NCBI RefSeq assembly: GCF_056746865.1
Contig: NZ_CM163382.1
Length of the DNA: 64,000 nt
Direction: 5' to 3' (one strand)
Of this stretch, positions 12,576 to 19,524 are shown one piece after another. Below the pieces are notes generated by a model. It was not told where the DNA came from. It searched no databases and saw only the letters and a program-made list of their open reading frames with translations. The first letter of the stretch is position 1. Each line of letters starts with the position of its first letter. A program made the position numbers and the translations under genes.

Positions 12576-12686
12576 ATGTCAAATACACAGAAAATTATTA
12601 ACACTGAAAAATATAACGAGTGGGTGAAAAATTCTCTGAGCAGATTTTTAAAATTACTGGCGACGAGAATGTGGCAAAAAATGAAT
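12576..12686 (+). CDS. Small basic protein (36 aa), hypothetical
   Basis: Manual translation MSNTQKIINTEKYNEWVKNSLSRFLKLLATRMWQKMN; GGAGG RBS 8 nt upstream; below track cutoff. Confidence 0.3.
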
Positions 12687-12819
12687 TAGAACCGTGGACA
12701 CCTGAAGGAAACGCACCAAATTATTGCTGGTGGGAGGTTGATCCGGTTGATGCTGCAAATGAAGCCATGAGTTACCACAACGATTAATGTCGGGAGGCCG
12801 CCCGAAAGGGCGGTAAGAA

Positions 12820-13039: not shown

Positions 13040-13243
13040 ATGGCAACTTTGACAAAAAAAGAACGGGCATGGTTGAACGAATTACAGGAAGTTCTTGATC
13101 GCTGTCCATCACCGAAAAAATTGGCTTTTACACCATTGGCGATAAAAGCATTTACCTGTATGACCTACGCCGCATGGATGAAATCATGGAGGCTCTTGAT
13201 AATCGTTCGTCGATGGATTGGTGTGTTGCTGTTCATGATATGA
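13040..13243 (+). CDS. Hypothetical small protein (67 aa)
   Basis: ATG overlapping the previous stop (TGATATG); internal Met of track ORF 12950..13243. Confidence 0.35.
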   Translation: MATLTKKERAWLNELQEVLDRCPSPKKLAFTPLAIKAFTCMTYAAWMKSWRLLIIVRRWIGVLLFMI

Positions 13244-13433
13244 ATGCAGGGTTTGATGAAAAGATTTTGTTCCCCTCATCAGTTGAAAGCACTGCGGGTT
13301 AAGGAGTAACACATGACCACTATTACCAAAGAACGTATTGAATTGTTCATTAAATTTTCAGGAGGCGGTACTGTGAGTGAAATTAGCTATCAGGCTTCAA
13401 TTACCGCTGGCATTCGCATCAAAGGAGAGGAGC

Positions 13434-14066: not shown

Positions 14067-14235
14067 TTTTGGTTCAACTAAATACAACGTCGGTTTTGAA
14101 GAATGGCATGAACTGTTAATGGACTATGCAGAGTTACGTGGTGGCAGTGCTGCTGATGCTGAAGCATGGCGTGATGATTATGAAGCAGGAAAAACTCCGG
14201 TCGAAGCATATTGTGATGAGTGGGGCGATGAATGA
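14059..14235 (+). CDS. Small acidic protein (58 aa), hypothetical
   Basis: Manual translation MADFGSTKYNVGFEEWHELLMDYAELRGG...; overlaps previous stop. Confidence 0.3.
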   Translation: MADFGSTKYNVGFEEWHELLMDYAELRGGSAADAEAWRDDYEAGKTPVEAYCDEWGDE

Positions 14236-14717
14236 GCGAGGTTAATTATCAGGAAGGGCATGAAACGGCGGGGCAAGCAAAAACAGTGGCATGGCGATAT
14301 CGCTACGTGAAAAAAAGGCGTTACGGACTTTCAGGGGAAGTAGTGGTCTGGTGACTGGAAATATGTACCGAAAAAAGAGGATTGTAACGACAGGCCGAAC
14401 TATGAAATTCAGGCCTTATTCACTGCCCCGCCAGTCCCGGTTACATCAGAAGAACTGGTTAAAGCTGTGCACTTTTATGAACAACTAAAATGCGAAAATC
14501 CACCAGCATCCGGAAACCTGATTACAGATTCCCAGATAAGGCAATGAGCTACCTGGCGCAGAACGGGCTGATAAGTATGGGGAATGTTTTACGATGAATA
14601 TTTAGACTAAAGAGTTTGTAACGCTATGTAAGTGATTTTTTCTGGTTTAGATATTTATATGTCCGGCTAAATTGAGGTGTGTTTAAATGTTATTGCACAT
14701 TGATTGTAGGGGGAATA

Positions 14718-14897: not shown

Positions 14898-15155
14898 ATA
14901 CAGCGAACGCCATTGGTTTAGTTGGATATTTACTGTGCCGGACAAAAACGGTTTGCGGGGAAATCTTAGTTAAGTAGAATGACTGCGGGTGCTTGAGGCT
15001 ATCTGTCTCAGGCATGAACACCAAAAGGCAGATAGAGAAAAGCCCCAGTTAACATTACGCGTCCTGCAAGACGCTTAACATTAATCTGAGGCCATATCTA
15101 TGCGACACATAGAGATTAGCCTCTTACGGACCGAAAGGTCAAGGAGAAGCAGGCT

Positions 15156-15311
15156 ATGAAGCAGCAAAAGGCGATGTTAATCGCCCTGATCGTCATCTGT
15201 TTAACCGTCATAGTGACGGCACTGGTAACGAGGAAAGACCTCTGCGAGGTACGAATCCGAACCGGCCAGACGGAGGTCGCTGTCTTCACAGCTTACGAAC
15301 CTGAGGAGTAA
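15156..15311 (+). CDS. hok: Hok/Gef-family type I toxin
   Basis: 51 aa MKQQKAMLIALIVICLTVIVTALVTRKDLCEVRIRTGQTEVAVFTAYEPEE, Hok-like TM helix plus CE(I/V)R motif; AAGGAG RBS; short overlapping upstream leader ORF (mok-like). Confidence 0.85.
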   Translation: MKQQKAMLIALIVICLTVIVTALVTRKDLCEVRIRTGQTEVAVFTAYEPEE

Positions 15312-15380
15312 GAGACCAGGCGAGGGGGAAATCCCTCGCCACCTCTGATGAGTCAGGCATCCTCAACGCACCCGCACTTA

Positions 15381-15407
15381 ACCCGCTTCGGCGGGTTTTG
15401 TTTTTTC
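15381..15407 (+). terminator. Intrinsic terminator after hok
   Basis: ACCCGC-ttcg-GCGGGT hairpin followed by TTTGTTTTTT. Confidence 0.6.
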
Positions 15408-15478
15408 CTGGCATTCTGGTTTACAATTCGCACGTCAGCCTGAACACCTGACACCTGCTGCGCCAGTAGAGAAAACAG

Positions 15479-15751
15479 ATGGCGCACAAAACCAAATTTC
15501 ACAATTCTGATACCGACCTTGCCATCCGGCATGGGCGGCGTTCACACGCATTTAAAACCGACTGGTACCAACACCCACCATGTACTGAAGAACAGGCCGA
15601 ATGGCTAATTCATAACTACCGCAGACGCGGATACGAGATTAAGAAAGCCCTCAGCCTCGATTATCGTCACTGGATAATCTATGTCAGGCTCCCTTATTCC
15701 GAACGCTCACCGCGCCCATCCCGCACATTCCAGCAACGCATCTGGAGGTAA
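15479..15751 (+). CDS. Hypothetical protein (90 aa), overlaps the DUF968 gene out of frame
   Basis: ORF overlapping 15681..16802 by 71 nt in another frame. Confidence 0.3.
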   Translation: MAHKTKFHNSDTDLAIRHGRRSHAFKTDWYQHPPCTEEQAEWLIHNYRRRGYEIKKALSLDYRHWIIYVRLPYSERSPRPSRTFQQRIWR

Positions 15752-16802
15752 CGTGCGGATATTACTTCGACCTGTTCTGGTACCGGAACTCGGGCTGGTG
15801 GTCCTTAGGCCGGGCCGTGAATCCATGCCGGTATTCCACAATACCCGGGTACTGGTGGAGCCTGAACCGAAAAGCATGCACGGTCTGCCGTCCGGAGTCG
15901 TCCCTGCCGTTCGCCAGCCGCTGGCGGAGGATAAATCATTTCTGCCATTTTTCAGCGATGAGCGGGTGATTCGTGCTGCTGGCGGCGCTGGGGCACTGTC
16001 TGACTGGCTGTTGCGTCATGTCAAATCCTGCCAGTGGCCTCATGGTGACTATCATCACAGTGAAATCGTCATACATCGTTACGGTACCGGCGCGATGGTG
16101 TTGTGCTGGCACTGCGACAACCAGTTGCGCGACCAGACCTCCGAATCACTCGGGCAACTTGCTCATCAAAACCTGTCAGCATGGATGATTGACGTCATAC
16201 GCCATGCAATGAATGGCACGCAGGAGCGGGAATTGTCGCTGGCTGAATTATCCTGGTGGGCGGTCCGCAATCAGGTGGCGGACGCGCTACCGGAAGTGGT
16301 ATTACGTCGTTCGCTGGGGTTGCGTGCGGAAAAAATCCGCTCAATGTACCGTGAAAGCGACATCGTACCGGGAGAGCAGACCGCCACCAGCATACTGAAA
16401 CAGCGCACAAAAAATATTGCGCCGCTGCCTCACGCCCACCAGCAACAGAACCCACCACAGGAAAAGACGGTGGTCAGCATTGCCGTTGATCCTGAGTCTC
16501 CGGAATCTTTCATGAAACGACCTAAACGTCGCCGCTGGGTTAACGAGAAATACAAACGCTGGGTGAAGACACAGCCGTGTGCGTGTTGTGGTAAGCCAGC
16601 CGACGATCCCCATCACCTGATTGGTCATGGTCAGGGCGGAATGGGGACAAAATCTCACGATATTTTCACGCTACCGCTGTGTCGGGAGCATCACAACGAG
16701 CTTCATGCGGATCCTCTGGCGTTCGAACAAAAGCATGGTTCTCAGGTTGATTTAATTTTTCGTTTTCTTGATCACGCCTTTGCAACTGGCGTGCTTGGGT
16801 AA
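15681..16802 (+). CDS. DUF968-like protein (Cys/His-rich C-terminal domain)
   Basis: C-terminal CACCGK...HHLIGHGQGGMGTKSHD...CREHHNELH region typical of prophage DUF968/YdfU-like proteins; start uncertain (alternative ATG 15825). Confidence 0.55.
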   Translation: MSGSLIPNAHRAHPAHSSNASGGNVRILLRPVLVPELGLVVLRPGRESMPVFHNTRVLVEPEPKSMHGLPSGVVPAVRQPLAEDKSFLPFFSDERVIRAAGGAGALSDWLLRHVKSCQWPHGDYHHSEIVIHRYGTGAMVLCWHCDNQLRDQTSESLGQLAHQNLSAWMIDVIRHAMNGTQERELSLAELSWWAVRNQVADALPEVVLRRSLGLRAEKIRSMYRESDIVPGEQTATSILKQRTKNIAPLPHAHQQQNPPQEKTVVSIAVDPESPESFMKRPKRRRWVNEKYKRWVKTQPCACCGKPADDPHHLIGHGQGGMGTKSHDIFTLPLCREHHNELHADPLAFEQKHGSQVDLIFRFLDHAFATGVLG

Positions 16803-16814
16803 AAGAGGTGACTG

Positions 16815-17174
16815 ATGCTCATAGATTTGGTTTTACCTTACCCGCCGACGGTGAACACTTACTGGCGACGCCGTGGCAGCACATATTTTATTTCGGAGGA
16901 GGGAAAGCGTTATCGCCGGGCTGTGGCGCTTATTGTTCGCCAGCAGCGGCTGAAATTAAGCCTGTCCGGAAGGCTGGCGATAAAGGTGATTGCAGAGCCA
17001 CCGGATAAGCGTCGTCGCGACCTGGACAATATCCTGAAAGCACCGCTGGATGCGCTGACGCATGCGGGAGTGTTAATGGACGATGAGCAGTTTGATGAAA
17101 TCAATATTGTACGTGGTCAGCCAGTATCTGGTGGACGGCTGGGTGTGAAGATTTACAAAATTGAGAGTGAGTGA
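16815..17174 (+). CDS. rusA: Holliday junction resolvase RusA
   Basis: 119 aa; LPYPPTVNTYWRRRG and RRRDLDN motifs match RusA. Confidence 0.9.
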   Translation: MLIDLVLPYPPTVNTYWRRRGSTYFISEEGKRYRRAVALIVRQQRLKLSLSGRLAIKVIAEPPDKRRRDLDNILKAPLDALTHAGVLMDDEQFDEINIVRGQPVSGGRLGVKIYKIESE

Positions 17175-17737
17175 GCGTAAATATGATATATCCGGAAATT
17201 ACAGGCAAAAGCGGCGAGCATTTACGTCTAAAAACGCTGGAAGCAGTCTGGATCCAGGGGAAATTACGGATGTGGGGGCGGTGGCCGTATATTGGCGGCG
17301 GTAAGACGGGAAATATGTTCAACCAATTACTGACCTCTAAAAAGCTGACAAAAACGGCAATTAACGAGGCGCTCCGGAGGATGAAAAAAGCTGGTCTGGA
17401 CAAACCTGAACTTGAGGCTTTTTTGCGGGATATGATCAACGGCAATCAAAAAAGCTGGCTGGCACATTGTACCGATTCAGAGGCGTTAATAATCGACAGG
17501 GTTATTGGTGAAGTCCTGGCAGGCTATCCCGGGCTGCTCAATGTCCTGAGTCAGCGTTATGTGGGGCGGGGGATGACTAAGCGCAAAATGGCTGAACTGC
17601 TGAATGATGCACACCCGGAATGGAGTTTAAGAACCTGTGAAAGACGCATTGAGCATTGGCTAAAGGTGGCAGAATTTATTTTGTACAAACCAATGGTTAT
17701 GGCTTTTGGTATAGAGAAAAAAGTTATTGCTTTTTGA
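17171..17737 (+). CDS. Q: Late antitermination protein Q (lambdoid Q-like)
   Basis: 188 aa directly after rusA and followed by a strong intrinsic terminator (tR'-like). Confidence 0.65.
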   Translation: MSVNMIYPEITGKSGEHLRLKTLEAVWIQGKLRMWGRWPYIGGGKTGNMFNQLLTSKKLTKTAINEALRRMKKAGLDKPELEAFLRDMINGNQKSWLAHCTDSEALIIDRVIGEVLAGYPGLLNVLSQRYVGRGMTKRKMAELLNDAHPEWSLRTCERRIEHWLKVAEFILYKPMVMAFGIEKKVIAF

Positions 17738-18295: not shown

Positions 18296-18661
18296 ATGAT
18301 TGATGTCTTAGGGCCGGAGAAACGCAGACGGCGTACCACACAGGAAAAGATCGCAATTGTTCAGCAGAGCTTTGAACCGGGGATGACGGTCTCCCTCGTT
18401 GCCCGGCAACATGGTGTAGCAGCCAGCCAGTTATTTCTCTGGCGTAAGCAATACCAGGAAGGAAGTCTTACTGCTGTCGCCGCCGGAGAACAGGTTGTTC
18501 CTGCCTCTGAACTTGCTGCCGCCATGAAGCAGATTAAAGAACTCCAGCGCCTGCTCGGCAAGAAAACGATGGAAAATGAACTCCTCAAAGAAGCCGTTGA
18601 ATATGGACGGGCAAAAAAGTGGATAGCGCACGCGCCCTTATTGCCCGGGGATGGGGAGTAA
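18296..18661 (+). CDS. insC: IS2 transposase OrfA (InsC)
   Basis: [40 protein letters not shown]... matches InsC. Confidence 0.9.
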
Positions 18662-19524
18662 GCTTAGTCAGCCGTTGTCTCCGGGTGTCGCGTGCGCAGT
18701 TGCACGTCATTCTCAGACGAACCGATGACTGGATGGATGGCCGCCGCAGTCGTCACACTGATGATACGGATGTGCTTCTCCGTATACACCATGTTATCGG
18801 AGAGCTGCCCACGTATGGTTATCGTCGGGTATGGGCGCTGCTTCGCAGACAGGCAGAACTTGATGGTATGCCTGCGATCAATGCCAAACGTGTTTACCGG
18901 ATCATGCGCCAGAATGCGCTGTTGCTTGAGCGAAAACCTGCTGTACCGCCATCGAAACGGGCACATACAGGCAGAGTGGCAGTGAAAGAAAGTAATCAGC
19001 GATGGTGCTCTGACGGGTTCGAGTTCCGCTGTGATAACGGAGAAAAACTGCGAGTCACGTTCGCGCAGGACTGCTGTGACCGTGAGGCACTGCACTGGGC
19101 GGTCACTACGGGCGGCTTCAACAGTGAAACAGTACAGGACGTCATGCTGGGAGCGGTGGAACGCCGCTTCGGCAACGAGCTTCCGGCGTCTCCAGTAGAG
19201 TGGCTGACGGATAATGGTTCATGCTACCGGGCTAATGAAACACGGCAGTTTGCCCGGATGTTGGGGCTTGAACCGAAGAGCACGGCGGTGCGGAGTCCGG
19301 AGAGTAACGGCATAGCAGAGAGCTTCGTGAAAACGATAAAGCGTGACTACATCAGTGTCATGCCCAAACCAGACGGGTTAACGGCAGCAAAGAACCTTGC
19401 AGAGGCGTTCGAGCATTATAACGAATGGCATCCGCATAGTGCACTGGGTTATCGCTCGCCACGGGAATATCTACGGCAGCAAGCCAGTAATGGGTTAAGT
19501 GATAACAGGTGTCTGGAAATATAG
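18619..19524 (+). CDS. insD: IS2 transposase OrfB (InsD), DDE domain
   Basis: 301-aa ORF overlapping orfA in -1 frame, typical IS3-family frameshift arrangement. Confidence 0.9.

What the first reader, a model, noticed from the sequence alone, without database searches (positions are those of the whole stretch)
15479..16802. Overlapping out-of-frame ORFs at the DUF968 gene suggest a frameshift or unusual start
A 90-codon ORF (15479..15751) overlaps by 71 nt, in a different frame, the 373-codon ORF whose C-terminus is the Cys/His-rich DUF968-like domain. Either the DUF968 gene begins at an internal ATG (for example 15825), or one ancestral gene has been split by a frameshift.
Basis: seen in the sequence. 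Interest (0 to 1): 0.3.

Follow-up and report, generated by a model that had tools for sequence, protein, structure and literature searches.

The report
Two adjacent prophage genes, no frameshift
The apparent out-of-frame overlap comes from calling the longest possible ORF: a small conserved prophage gene ends one base before the real GTG start of a YdfU-type HNH nuclease gene, so this is an ordinary pair of tightly packed genes and not a broken gene.

Summary
The two ORFs exist exactly as described: 15479..15751 (90 aa) and 15681..16802 (373 aa) overlap by 71 nt in different frames. The overlap is not biological.

- **Real start.** The DUF968/YdfU-type gene starts at GTG 15753 and encodes 349 aa. 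The junction reads GGAGG-TAA-C-GTG, so the upstream stop lies one base before the start.
- **Junction conservation.** The stop, the one-base spacer and the GTG are the same in all 68 distinct homologous loci; the GGAGG and the spacer base each vary in one. ATG 15681 occurs in only 11 of them, where a synonymous TAT codon of the upstream gene creates it.
- **Selection.** Between 15681 and 15748, substitutions fit the upstream frame (pN/pS 0.13) and not the DUF968 frame (4.9). The phase switches at the GTG.
- **Distant homologues.** YdfU relatives at 47-56% identity all begin (M/V/L)RxLL, at ATG, GTG or TTG. Most have no ORF90-like gene upstream.
- **ORF90 family.** ORF90 belongs to a family of stand-alone proteins of about 66 aa (phrog_1212).
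- **Only fusion found.** One K-12-like assembly carries a 13-nt deletion that fuses the two genes.

The frameshift reading is refuted, and the internal-start reading is right except for the codon. RefSeq already annotates the genes this way. Interest is low.

The parts
15479..15751 (+). ORF90, a small conserved prophage gene (90 aa; family phrog_1212; function unknown). Residues 25-90 are the conserved 66-aa core. Residues 1-24 are a variable N-terminal extension seen here only in Escherichia/Shigella homologues.
   Evidence: PGAP annotates it as WP_023148805.1 in a 100% identical record. It is intact in 65 of 68 distinct homologues by the script; two of the other three are alignment offsets at the start codon, as read from the translations, and one is a recombinant. 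pN/pS is 0.28 overall, 0.16 for residues 25-90 and 0.78 for residues 1-24. It matches phrog_1212 at E=1e-35. A profile search found 75 relatives, most of them about 66 aa. The AlphaFold2 (AF2) model is beta-alpha-beta-beta plus a C-terminal helix, with pLDDT below 50 for residues 1-20.
15681..15752 (+). Spurious 5' extension of the DUF968 ORF (24 codons, 'MSGSLIPNAHRAHPAHSSNASGGN'). It is not coding in this frame; 15681-15751 is read in the ORF90 frame.
   Evidence: ATG 15681 is present in 11 of 68 distinct homologues; the others have CCG, ACG, CTG or CAG. Changes by codon position in 15681-15748 are 5, 7, 23 in the ORF90 frame (chi-square p=2e-4). pN/pS is 4.9 in the DUF968 frame against 0.13 in the ORF90 frame. 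By direct reading, no Shine-Dalgarno (SD) sequence precedes ATG 15681 (CTGGATAATCT-ATG).
15744..15748 (+). SD sequence GGAGG for the DUF968 gene. It lies inside the last two codons (TGG AGG = W R) of ORF90, 4 nt before the GTG.
   Evidence: The sequence is. GGAGGTAAC occurs in 66 of 68 homologues, GGAGATAAC in one and GGAGGTAAT in one.
15721..15758 (+). Predicted RNA hairpin that pairs CCGCAC with GUGCGG (start codon) and UUCCAG with CUGGAG (SD). It is a candidate RBS-occluding structure for translational coupling (inferred).
   Evidence: dG is -15.3 kcal/mol, z = -3.1, and 1 of 200 shuffles folds as well. The outer stem that pairs the start codon is predicted in all 19 junction sequence variants; pairing across the SD is rearranged or weaker in about five of them; dG -12 to -21. 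There is no covariation because the sequence is nearly invariant.
15753..16802 (+). YdfU-type DUF968 gene (349 aa, GTG start). The C-terminal domain is a His-Me finger (HNH) nuclease domain. The N-terminal domain has a second HNH-like Cys/His motif.
15156..15311 (+). Context: hokD toxin gene. The hok leader/sok region lies at 14987-15158, and the hok mRNA terminator lies at 15380-15397 followed by a T run.
   Evidence: Pfam HOK_GEF matches at 82.9 bits. Rfam sok RF01794 matches at 106.7 bits.
16815..17174 (+). Context: rusA Holliday-junction resolvase gene. It is followed by a Q-like antiterminator gene (DUF1133) at 17183..17737.
   Evidence: Pfam RusA matches at 64.5 bits and DUF1133 at 349 bits.

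Best explanation
Two separate, tightly packed genes lie in the region of an E. coli lambdoid prophage just upstream of the Q antiterminator gene. ORF90 (15479..15751) encodes a small conserved protein of unknown function. The YdfU-type DUF968 gene encodes a 349-aa His-Me finger (HNH) nuclease. It starts at GTG 15753, one base after the ORF90 stop codon, and its SD sequence GGAGG is formed by the last two ORF90 codons. The 71-nt overlap exists only because, in this allele, a synonymous TAT codon of ORF90 followed by G creates an in-frame ATG 24 codons upstream of the real start.

Shown here: the gene boundaries, the reading frame used in the overlap, and the independence of the two gene families.

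Inferred: the two genes are translationally coupled. Ribosomes terminating at TAA 15749-51 would open a hairpin that sequesters the SD and the GTG, and then start or restart at the GTG.
For: - **Annotation.** RefSeq PGAP annotates exactly 15479..15751 and 15753..16802 in a 100% identical record and in two diverged ones. K-12 YdfU starts at the same GTG and has the same length.
- **Junction.** The stop, the 1-nt spacer and the GTG are the same in all 68 distinct homologues; the SD and the spacer base each vary in one (GGAG[G/A]-TAA-[C/T]-GTG). ATG 15681 occurs in 11 of 68.
- **Substitution phase.** In 15681-15748, changes at codon positions 1, 2, 3 are 5, 7, 23 in the ORF90 frame. After the GTG they are 116, 69, 292 in the DUF968 frame.
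- **pN/pS.** The overlap gives 0.13 in the ORF90 frame and 4.9 in the DUF968 frame. DUF968 codons 2-24 give 0.40 in their own frame.
- **Family profile.** PHROG 96 begins at residue 1 of the GTG-started protein.
- **Divergent homologues.** Nineteen divergent YdfU loci all begin (M/V/L)RxLL, with ATG 12 times, GTG 6 times and TTG once, most of them preceded by an SD-like purine-rich stretch. Only 2 of the 19 have an ORF90-family gene upstream. M1 and R2 are invariant down to 47% identity.
- **ORF90 relatives.** They are stand-alone proteins of about 66 aa. Where they precede a YdfU homologue, the junctions are TAG-CGG-ATG (same frame) or TGATG (1-nt overlap), so the frame offset is not conserved.
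- **Hairpin.** The junction hairpin has z = -3.1; its outer stem over the start codon is predicted in all 19 junction variants.
Against: - There is no experimental mapping of the N-terminus or of ribosome initiation for this allele.
- The SD-to-GTG spacer is short (4 nt after GGAGG).
- AF2 gives low confidence (pLDDT below 50) for residues 1-52 of the 349-aa protein, so structure does not confirm that the first 24 residues are part of a fold.
- Some database entries and phage records use other starts: 373-377 aa, 326 aa and 316 aa.
- Coupling through the hairpin rests on thermodynamic prediction only. There is no covariation, and one distant relative (L087) shows no significant structure.
Confidence: 0.93

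Rival explanations
1. One ancestral gene was split by a frameshift, so ORF90 is the detached N-terminus of a longer DUF968 protein and the locus is a pseudogene.
For: There are two out-of-frame ORFs with a 71-nt mechanical overlap. The prophage carries real frameshifted pseudogenes about 1 kb upstream. One 438-aa fused protein exists in the databases (P0164).
Against: - P0164 is a singleton made by a 13-nt deletion (CTGGAGGTAACGT) in a K-12-like background. It lacks the IWR tail, so it is derived and not ancestral.
- None of the 120 listed ORF90-family clusters (146 found) is longer than 148 aa.
- YdfU homologues down to 47% identity start at MRxLL, and 17 of 19 have unrelated upstream genes.
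- ORF90 relatives are stand-alone 66-aa proteins.
- Both genes show purifying selection, with pN/pS of 0.28 and 0.12.
- The frame offset differs among relatives.
Confidence: 0.01
2. The DUF968 gene really starts at ATG 15681 (373 aa) and genuinely overlaps ORF90 by 71 nt.
For: ATG is the stronger start codon and gives the longest ORF. Several database entries of 373-377 aa begin MSGSLIPNAH....
Against: - The ATG is absent from 57 of 68 distinct homologues, including K-12.
- pN/pS of the extension in that frame is 4.9.
- By direct reading, no SD precedes it.
- The PHROG 96 profile and all divergent homologues start 24 codons later.
- A minor amount of initiation at this ATG in this particular allele cannot be excluded, but it would not be a conserved feature.
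Confidence: 0.03
3. The DUF968 gene starts at the internal ATG 15825 (325 aa), as the first reader suggested and as some phage annotations have it.
For: ATG 15825 is present in 64 of 68 homologues. Phage HannyBb annotates the equivalent start, giving 326 aa.
Against: - Codons 2-24 upstream of it are conserved in the DUF968 frame, with pN/pS of 0.40 against 5.6 in an alternative frame. M1, R2, G14, V16 and G21 are invariant to 47% identity.
- K-12 and 3 other homologues have ATA or CTG at this codon.
- The equivalent residue (Met25) is Met, Leu or Ile in the aligned homologues, so it is an ordinary internal residue.
- The ATG/GTG/TTG interchange occurs at position 1 and not here.
Confidence: 0.03
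4. A programmed +1 ribosomal frameshift at the end of ORF90 makes an ORF90-YdfU fusion protein.
For: The DUF968 frame is +1 relative to ORF90. It is open from 15678 onward (the last in-frame stop is TAA 15675-77). An SD-like GGAGG and a rare AGG codon lie next to the stop, which loosely recalls the prfB arrangement (the comparison with prfB is from general knowledge).
Against: - By direct reading (no pattern scan was run), there is no known +1 shift motif. UGG-AGG-UAA gives the P-site tRNA no way to re-pair, and the SD overlaps the shift site instead of lying 3 nt upstream as in prfB.
- The GTG is invariant although it would be a freely variable Val codon in a fusion.
- The start position switches among ATG, GTG and TTG in relatives.
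- The frame offset is 0, +1 or +2 in different relatives, and most YdfU genes lack the upstream partner.
Confidence: 0.01

Closest known systems
E. coli K-12 Qin prophage YdfU (b1560, NP_416078.4; Pfam DUF968)
   Same: 84% identical over the full length, same length (349 aa) and the same GTG start with the same GGAGGTAACGTG junction. It lies in the same region, downstream of hokD and upstream of a Q-like antiterminator.
   Different: K-12 has rem between hokD and the ORF90 homologue and has no rusA between ydfU and the Q gene. K-12 lacks ATG 15681 (it has CTG), so it shows no long overlap.
His-Me finger (HNH) superfamily group 7: DUF968 plus DUF1364, including DLP12 YbcO (PDB 3g27); also P1 Ref nuclease (PDB 3plw)
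   Different: No nuclease activity has been shown for any YdfU-type protein (none found). This protein has an extra N-terminal domain of about 250 residues with a second Cys/His motif that YbcO and Ref lack. No lambda Orf-like N-domain of the kind reported for Gram-positive DUF968 proteins (PMC4118853) was detected here (no Pfam hit outside DUF968).
phrog_1212, a family of about 66-aa phage proteins of unknown function (ORF90)
   Same: ORF90 residues 25-90 match the whole 66-position profile at E=1e-35. Relatives share the F/W..H...T.E(Q/E)A..L...Y..RG...K.L..D...W.V...LP...PR....QQ(R/K)xW(R/G) pattern.
   Different: ORF90 has a poorly conserved 24-26 residue N-terminal extension, predicted to be disordered, that was seen only in Escherichia/Shigella.
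orf45-anrP translational coupling in Salmonella Gifsy-1 (Hershko-Shalev et al. 2016, PMC4825925)
   Same: It is a working analogy only. A small upstream ORF in a prophage regulatory region has its stop codon next to the start of the downstream gene (AUGA there, UAA-C-GUG here), and translation of the small ORF is needed to translate the downstream gene.
   Different: There is no sequence relationship. The orf45 peptide sequence is not conserved, whereas the ORF90 core is under purifying selection. That locus lies downstream of antQ, while this one lies upstream of Q. The isrK match in this window is below threshold (26 bits against 50) and coincides with the hok mRNA 3' end. Coupling here is untested.

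Membership tests
Pfam DUF968 (PF06147) / YdfU-type proteins | Match to the family HMM above the curated gathering score | tested here: met
   255.2 bits against a cut-off of 27.8, covering profile positions 1-171 of 171. PHROG 96 matches at E=2.7e-174 over the full length.
Pfam DUF968 (PF06147) / YdfU-type proteins | N-terminus and length as in characterised-locus members (K-12 YdfU: 349 aa, starting MRVLLRP) | tested here: met
   GTG 15753 gives 349 aa starting (M)RILLRP, 84% identical to K-12 YdfU.
His-Me finger (HNH) nucleases | Beta-beta-alpha-metal fold with a catalytic His and a Cys/His zinc site | tested here: met
His-Me finger (HNH) nucleases | Metal-dependent nuclease activity | not testable with these tools
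   This needs biochemistry. No published assay of a YdfU-type protein was found.
Frameshift-split gene (pseudogene) | Intact homologues exist in which the two parts form one continuous reading frame | tested here: not met
   The only fusion is singleton P0164, caused by a 13-nt deletion. None of the 120 listed ORF90-family clusters (146 found) exceeds 148 aa. YdfU homologues start at MRxLL.
Frameshift-split gene (pseudogene) | Relaxed selection or decay in at least one part | tested here: not met
   pN/pS is 0.28 for ORF90 (0.16 for its core) and 0.12 for DUF968. ORF90 is intact in 65 of 68 distinct homologues by the script; two of the other three are alignment offsets at the start codon.
Programmed ribosomal frameshift | A recognised slippery or shift-prone site in the overlap, and a conserved frame relationship between the two ORFs | tested here: not met
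   By direct reading, the junction UGG-AGG-UAA-C has no known +1 motif; no pattern scan was run. The offset between the two genes is +1 here, 0 in L087/L088 and +2 in L105/L106, and 17 of 19 divergent YdfU genes lack the partner.
Translationally coupled gene pair (termination-reinitiation) | The upstream stop lies within a few nucleotides of the downstream start, and the SD lies inside the upstream coding sequence | tested here: met
   The junction GGAGG-TAA-C-GTG keeps the stop, the 1-nt spacer and the GTG in all 68 homologues, with one variant each in the SD and the spacer base. Distant pairs have TAG-CGG-ATG and TGATG.
Translationally coupled gene pair (termination-reinitiation) | The downstream RBS is occluded by structure that upstream translation opens | tested here: inconclusive
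   The hairpin 15721-15758 pairs the SD and the GTG, with z = -3.1; its outer stem over the start codon is predicted in all 19 junction variants. There is no covariation, and L087 shows no significant structure.
Translationally coupled gene pair (termination-reinitiation) | Downstream translation depends on upstream translation | not testable with these tools
   This needs reporter fusions with ORF90 start or stop mutations.
phrog_1212 small phage protein family (ORF90) | Match to the family profile over its full length | tested here: met
   E=1e-35, with residues 25-90 aligned to profile positions 1-66 of 66. A profile search recovered about 50 relatives of about 66 aa.

The most novel reading that the evidence does not exclude
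ORF90 is more than a neighbour. The conserved small protein family (phrog_1212) may be a dedicated upstream partner of YdfU-type HNH nucleases. Translating ORF90 to its stop codon would melt a conserved hairpin that hides the nuclease gene's SD and GTG, so the nuclease is made only when ORF90 is translated. The ORF90 protein might also bind or restrain the nuclease. The family's conserved C-terminal W-R/W-G dipeptide would then have two roles, as protein sequence and as the SD (TGG-AGG or TGG-GGG). The K-12 copy of this gene, at complement(1644306..1644584), is missing from the MG1655 reference annotation.
Probability: 0.3. Interest if true: 0.25.

Novelty: already known. Interest (0 to 1): 0.08.

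Why it matters
It matters little. The locus is correctly annotated in RefSeq, and the arrangement (stop, one base, GTG, with the SD inside the upstream gene) is a textbook compact operon junction.

The practical value is for annotation:
- Public records use at least four different starts for this nuclease gene (373-377, 349, 326 and 316 aa). The comparative data here fix it at the GTG.
- The same data show that a 92-aa gene under purifying selection lies unannotated between rem and ydfU in the E. coli K-12 MG1655 reference record.

If the inferred translational coupling were confirmed, it would be a small addition to what is known about how lambdoid prophages control a putative nuclease.

Tried and rejected
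- **Solved structures for YdfU by sequence.** The search found none.
- **Related loci for the diverse 66-aa family.** I used a 57%-identical YdfU homologue as the query instead.
- **Antisense 59-aa ORF (15353..15532).** Only 6 distinct gapless homologues with 5 variable sites were available, so coding potential could not be tested.
- **IsrK-like sRNA upstream of ORF90.** The match is 26 bits against a gathering score of 50, and it coincides with the hok mRNA 3' end and terminator. I treated it as not established.
- **Own promoter for ORF90.** No promoter-like site lies on the + strand between the hok terminator and 15479. The two sites found in the region equal the shuffled expectation.
- **Genes next to the 66-aa relatives in L086 and L089.** The downstream genes have no DUF968 match and no Pfam assignment.
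- **Structure as support for residues 1-24.** The AF2 model of the 349-aa protein has pLDDT below 50 for residues 1-52, so structure could not be used to support inclusion of the first 24 residues.
Full report
**Observation.** The ORF list contains ORF 15479..15751 (+, 90 aa) and ORF 15681..16802 (+, 373 aa). They share 71 nt in different frames. The C-terminal half of the longer ORF matches Pfam DUF968 at 255 bits against a cut-off of 27.8.

The 373-aa ORF is only the mechanical "first start codon after the previous stop" ORF. The in-frame stop TAA is at 15675-77, and ATG 15681 follows one codon later. Such extensions are common: 4 of the 11 intact annotated genes around this site have a longest ORF that begins 4-41 codons upstream of the annotated start.

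**What databases say.** The region is a lambdoid prophage segment found in most E. coli genomes. 4777 of 5426 complete genomes have a match, and 12 records are at least 99% identical. In a 100% identical record and in two diverged ones, NCBI's annotation pipeline (PGAP) annotates these genes in order:
- hokD;
- a 273-nt hypothetical gene, equal to 15479..15751;
- a 1050-nt DUF968 gene, equal to 15753..16802;
- rusA;
- a DUF1133 (Q-like) gene.

The DUF968 gene therefore starts at GTG 15753. The sequence there is TGGAGG-TAA-C-GTG. It holds a Shine-Dalgarno (SD) sequence GGAGG at 15744-48, the ORF90 stop at 15749-51, one spacer base, and the start codon. K-12 Qin-prophage YdfU (b1560) is 349 aa, starts at the same GTG and is 84% identical.

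**Comparative test of the reading frame.** I collected 80 IMG/VR loci with a homologue at 92-99% protein identity and added E. coli records. The region was aligned for 68 distinct sequences.
- The stop, the 1-nt spacer and the GTG are the same in all 68; the SD and the spacer base each vary in one (GGAG[G/A]TAA[C/T]GTG).
- ATG 15681 is present in only 11 of 68. It arises where ORF90 uses TAT for a Tyr codon followed by G. The other sequences have TAC, TCC, TCT or TCA there.
- Within 15681-15748, state changes at codon positions 1, 2, 3 of the ORF90 frame are 5, 7, 23 (chi-square p=2e-4). Downstream of the GTG they are 116, 69, 292 in the DUF968 frame.
- Pairwise pN/pS for the overlap is 0.13 in the ORF90 frame and 4.9 in the DUF968 frame.
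- pN/pS is 0.28 for the whole of ORF90, 0.16 for residues 25-90 and 0.78 for residues 1-24. The DUF968 gene gives 0.12.

The overlap is therefore read in the ORF90 frame, and the phase switches at the GTG.

**GTG 15753 against ATG 15825.**
- Codons 2-24 after the GTG give pN/pS 0.40 in the DUF968 frame, against 0.70 and 5.6 in the other two frames.
- The PHROG 96 "HNH endonuclease" profile (334 positions) aligns from position 1 to residue 1.
- Nineteen divergent loci were found with a 57%-identical homologue as the query. In all of them the protein begins (M/V/L)RxLL at the same aligned position. The start codon is ATG 12 times, GTG 6 times and TTG once, and most are preceded by an SD-like purine-rich stretch. 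Only a start codon shows this kind of interchange.
- In the 24-sequence alignment, M1, R2, G14, V16 and G21 are invariant down to 47% identity.
- Codon 15825 is ATA or CTG in 4 of 68 homologues, including K-12.

**Is ORF90 a detached piece of the nuclease? No.**
- ORF90 has 146 homologous clusters. All that carry a name are from Escherichia or Shigella, most are 90-92 aa, and none of the 120 listed is longer than 148 aa.
- A profile search of 1.8 billion representative proteins found 75 relatives. Most are proteins of about 66 aa that align to ORF90 residues 27-90. This matches phrog_1212, which has 66 positions (E=1e-35).
- ORF90 is therefore a 66-aa core plus a variable N-terminal extension that is predicted to be disordered.
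- Some distant 66-aa genes also sit directly upstream of a YdfU homologue, but with different junctions. L087/L088 have ...QQRYWG-TAG-CGG-ATG (same frame). L105/L106 have ...KMWRD-TGATG (1-nt overlap).
- 17 of the 19 divergent YdfU genes have unrelated upstream genes. At least one 66-aa gene (L086) is followed by a gene with no DUF968 match.
- The only fused protein found is P0164 (438 aa). It is a singleton from assembly GCA_903976945.1 and results from a 13-nt deletion (CTGGAGGTAACGT) in a K-12-like sequence.
- Database entries of 373-377 aa are longest-ORF calls that begin MSGSLIPNAH....

**Programmed frameshifting.** This is also unsupported.
- By direct reading (no pattern scan was run), the junction has no recognised +1 shift motif.
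- The GTG is invariant although it would be a free Val codon in a fusion protein.
- The frame offset between the two genes is not conserved among relatives.

**How it most likely works.**

*Shown here:* there are two independent genes with a 1-nt spacer, and the SD for the second gene is formed by the last two codons (TGG AGG) of the first.

*Inferred:* the two genes are translationally coupled. RNA folding puts the SD (CUGGAG pairs with UUCCAG) and the start codon (GUGCGG pairs with CCGCAC) into one hairpin, 15721-15758. Its dG is -15.3 kcal/mol, z is -3.1, and 1 of 200 shuffles folds as well. The outer stem over the start codon is predicted in all 19 junction sequence variants, while pairing across the SD is rearranged or weaker in about five of them. 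The ORF90 stop codon lies inside the hairpin, so terminating ribosomes would open it. There is no covariation to support the structure, and one distant relative shows no significant fold.

*Transcription:* it probably comes from upstream early-operon readthrough. No promoter-like site lies between the hokD terminator (15380-15397 plus a T run) and ORF90. That such readthrough depends on antitermination in lambdoid phages is general knowledge and was not tested here.

**The proteins.** The literature places YdfU and DUF968 in His-Me finger group 7 together with DUF1364 and YbcO, with rusA and Q as typical neighbours (PMC5714182).

The AlphaFold2 (AF2) model of the 349-aa protein has two confident domains.
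- The CxxC...DDPHH...C...H...H residues are invariant.
- The N-terminal domain (residues 60-155, pLDDT about 90) has a beta-hairpin plus helix with invariant C93, Y100, H101, H102, C118 and C121. This resembles a second HNH-like motif.
- Residues 1-52 are conserved in sequence but have low confidence.

The ORF90 model is a small beta-alpha-beta-beta fold with no convincing structural match. No nuclease activity or partner interaction can be tested with these tools.

**Verdict.** The biological overlap is not real.
- The frameshift hypothesis is refuted.
- The internal-start hypothesis is right in kind but wrong in the codon.
- The arrangement is already annotated correctly in RefSeq, so the finding is ordinary.

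Two side results are worth recording. Public records use at least four different starts for this gene. The K-12 MG1655 reference record lacks the intact 92-aa ORF90 homologue, which is under purifying selection, between rem and ydfU.

Noticed in passing
L004 (NC_000913.3 complement 1644306..1644584); homologous to window 15479..15751: E. coli K-12 MG1655 has an intact 92-aa homologue of ORF90 between rem and ydfU, ending TAA-C-GTG(ydfU). The reference record annotates nothing there, although the identical protein is called 'hypothetical/prophage protein' on at least 1000 other contigs.
   Followed up: partly
window 15353..15532 (-): PGAP annotates an antisense 59-aa 'hypothetical protein' (WP_001112736.1; phrog_2947) that spans the hok mRNA terminator and the 5' end of ORF90. 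Homologues have too few variable sites (5) to test whether it codes. A promoter-like site on the minus strand at 15687..15660 points toward it, but that is within chance expectation.
   Followed up: partly
window 15320..15401 (+): There is a sub-threshold Rfam match to the Salmonella Gifsy-1 sRNA IsrK (26 bits against a gathering score of 50, E=0.006, full model length). It coincides with the 3' end and terminator of the hokD mRNA, directly upstream of the ORF90-ydfU pair. In Gifsy-1, isrK precedes a translationally coupled orf45-anrP pair.
   Followed up: partly
window 12600..12787, 13040..13302, 14232..14597; 18296..19524: PGAP flags real frameshifted pseudogenes in the 100% identical record about 1-3 kb upstream. 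The one at 14232-14597 is 'frameshifted; internal stop' and corresponds to overlapping ORFs 14232..14354 and 14291..14488. An IS3-family element lies downstream of the Q-like gene. The prophage is decaying, but not at the site in question.
   Followed up: no
window 15753..16802 (protein residues 60-155 and 1-52): The YdfU-type protein has a confidently modelled N-terminal domain with a beta-hairpin plus helix. It carries invariant C93, Y100-H101-H102 and C118-W-H-C121-D-N-Q-L, which resembles the C-terminal HNH motif and may be an internal duplication. Pfam DUF968 does not cover it. Residues 1-52 are strongly conserved but modelled with pLDDT below 50.
   Followed up: partly
L085 (GCA_903976945.1, CAJDFD010000001.1): A K-12-like assembly carries a 13-nt deletion (CTGGAGGTAACGT) that removes the SD, the stop and the GT of the start codon. 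It fuses the ORF90 homologue in frame to YdfU, giving 438 aa. This is the only fusion seen.
   Followed up: yes
L109 (phage Tritos), L110 (phage HannyBb); proteins P0151, P0178, P0183: Public records use at least four different starts for this nuclease gene: 373-377 aa (upstream ATG or CTG), 349 aa (GTG), 326 aa (the equivalent of ATG 15825) and 316 aa.
   Followed up: yes
L053; proteins P0089, P0117: These sequences show mosaic recombination inside ORF90. In L053 only the last 28 or so codons of ORF90 (with the SD and hairpin) remain attached to ydfU, behind unrelated sequence. Two 'lysis protein' (Rz-family) database entries contain 60-70% of the ORF90 sequence.
   Followed up: no
window 15743..15748 and the equivalent junctions in L087 and L105: The nearly invariant C-terminal W-R / W-G dipeptide of the 66-aa family is encoded by TGG-AGG or TGG-GGG, which also serves as the SD of the downstream gene. 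Its conservation may therefore reflect both protein and RBS constraints.
   Followed up: partly
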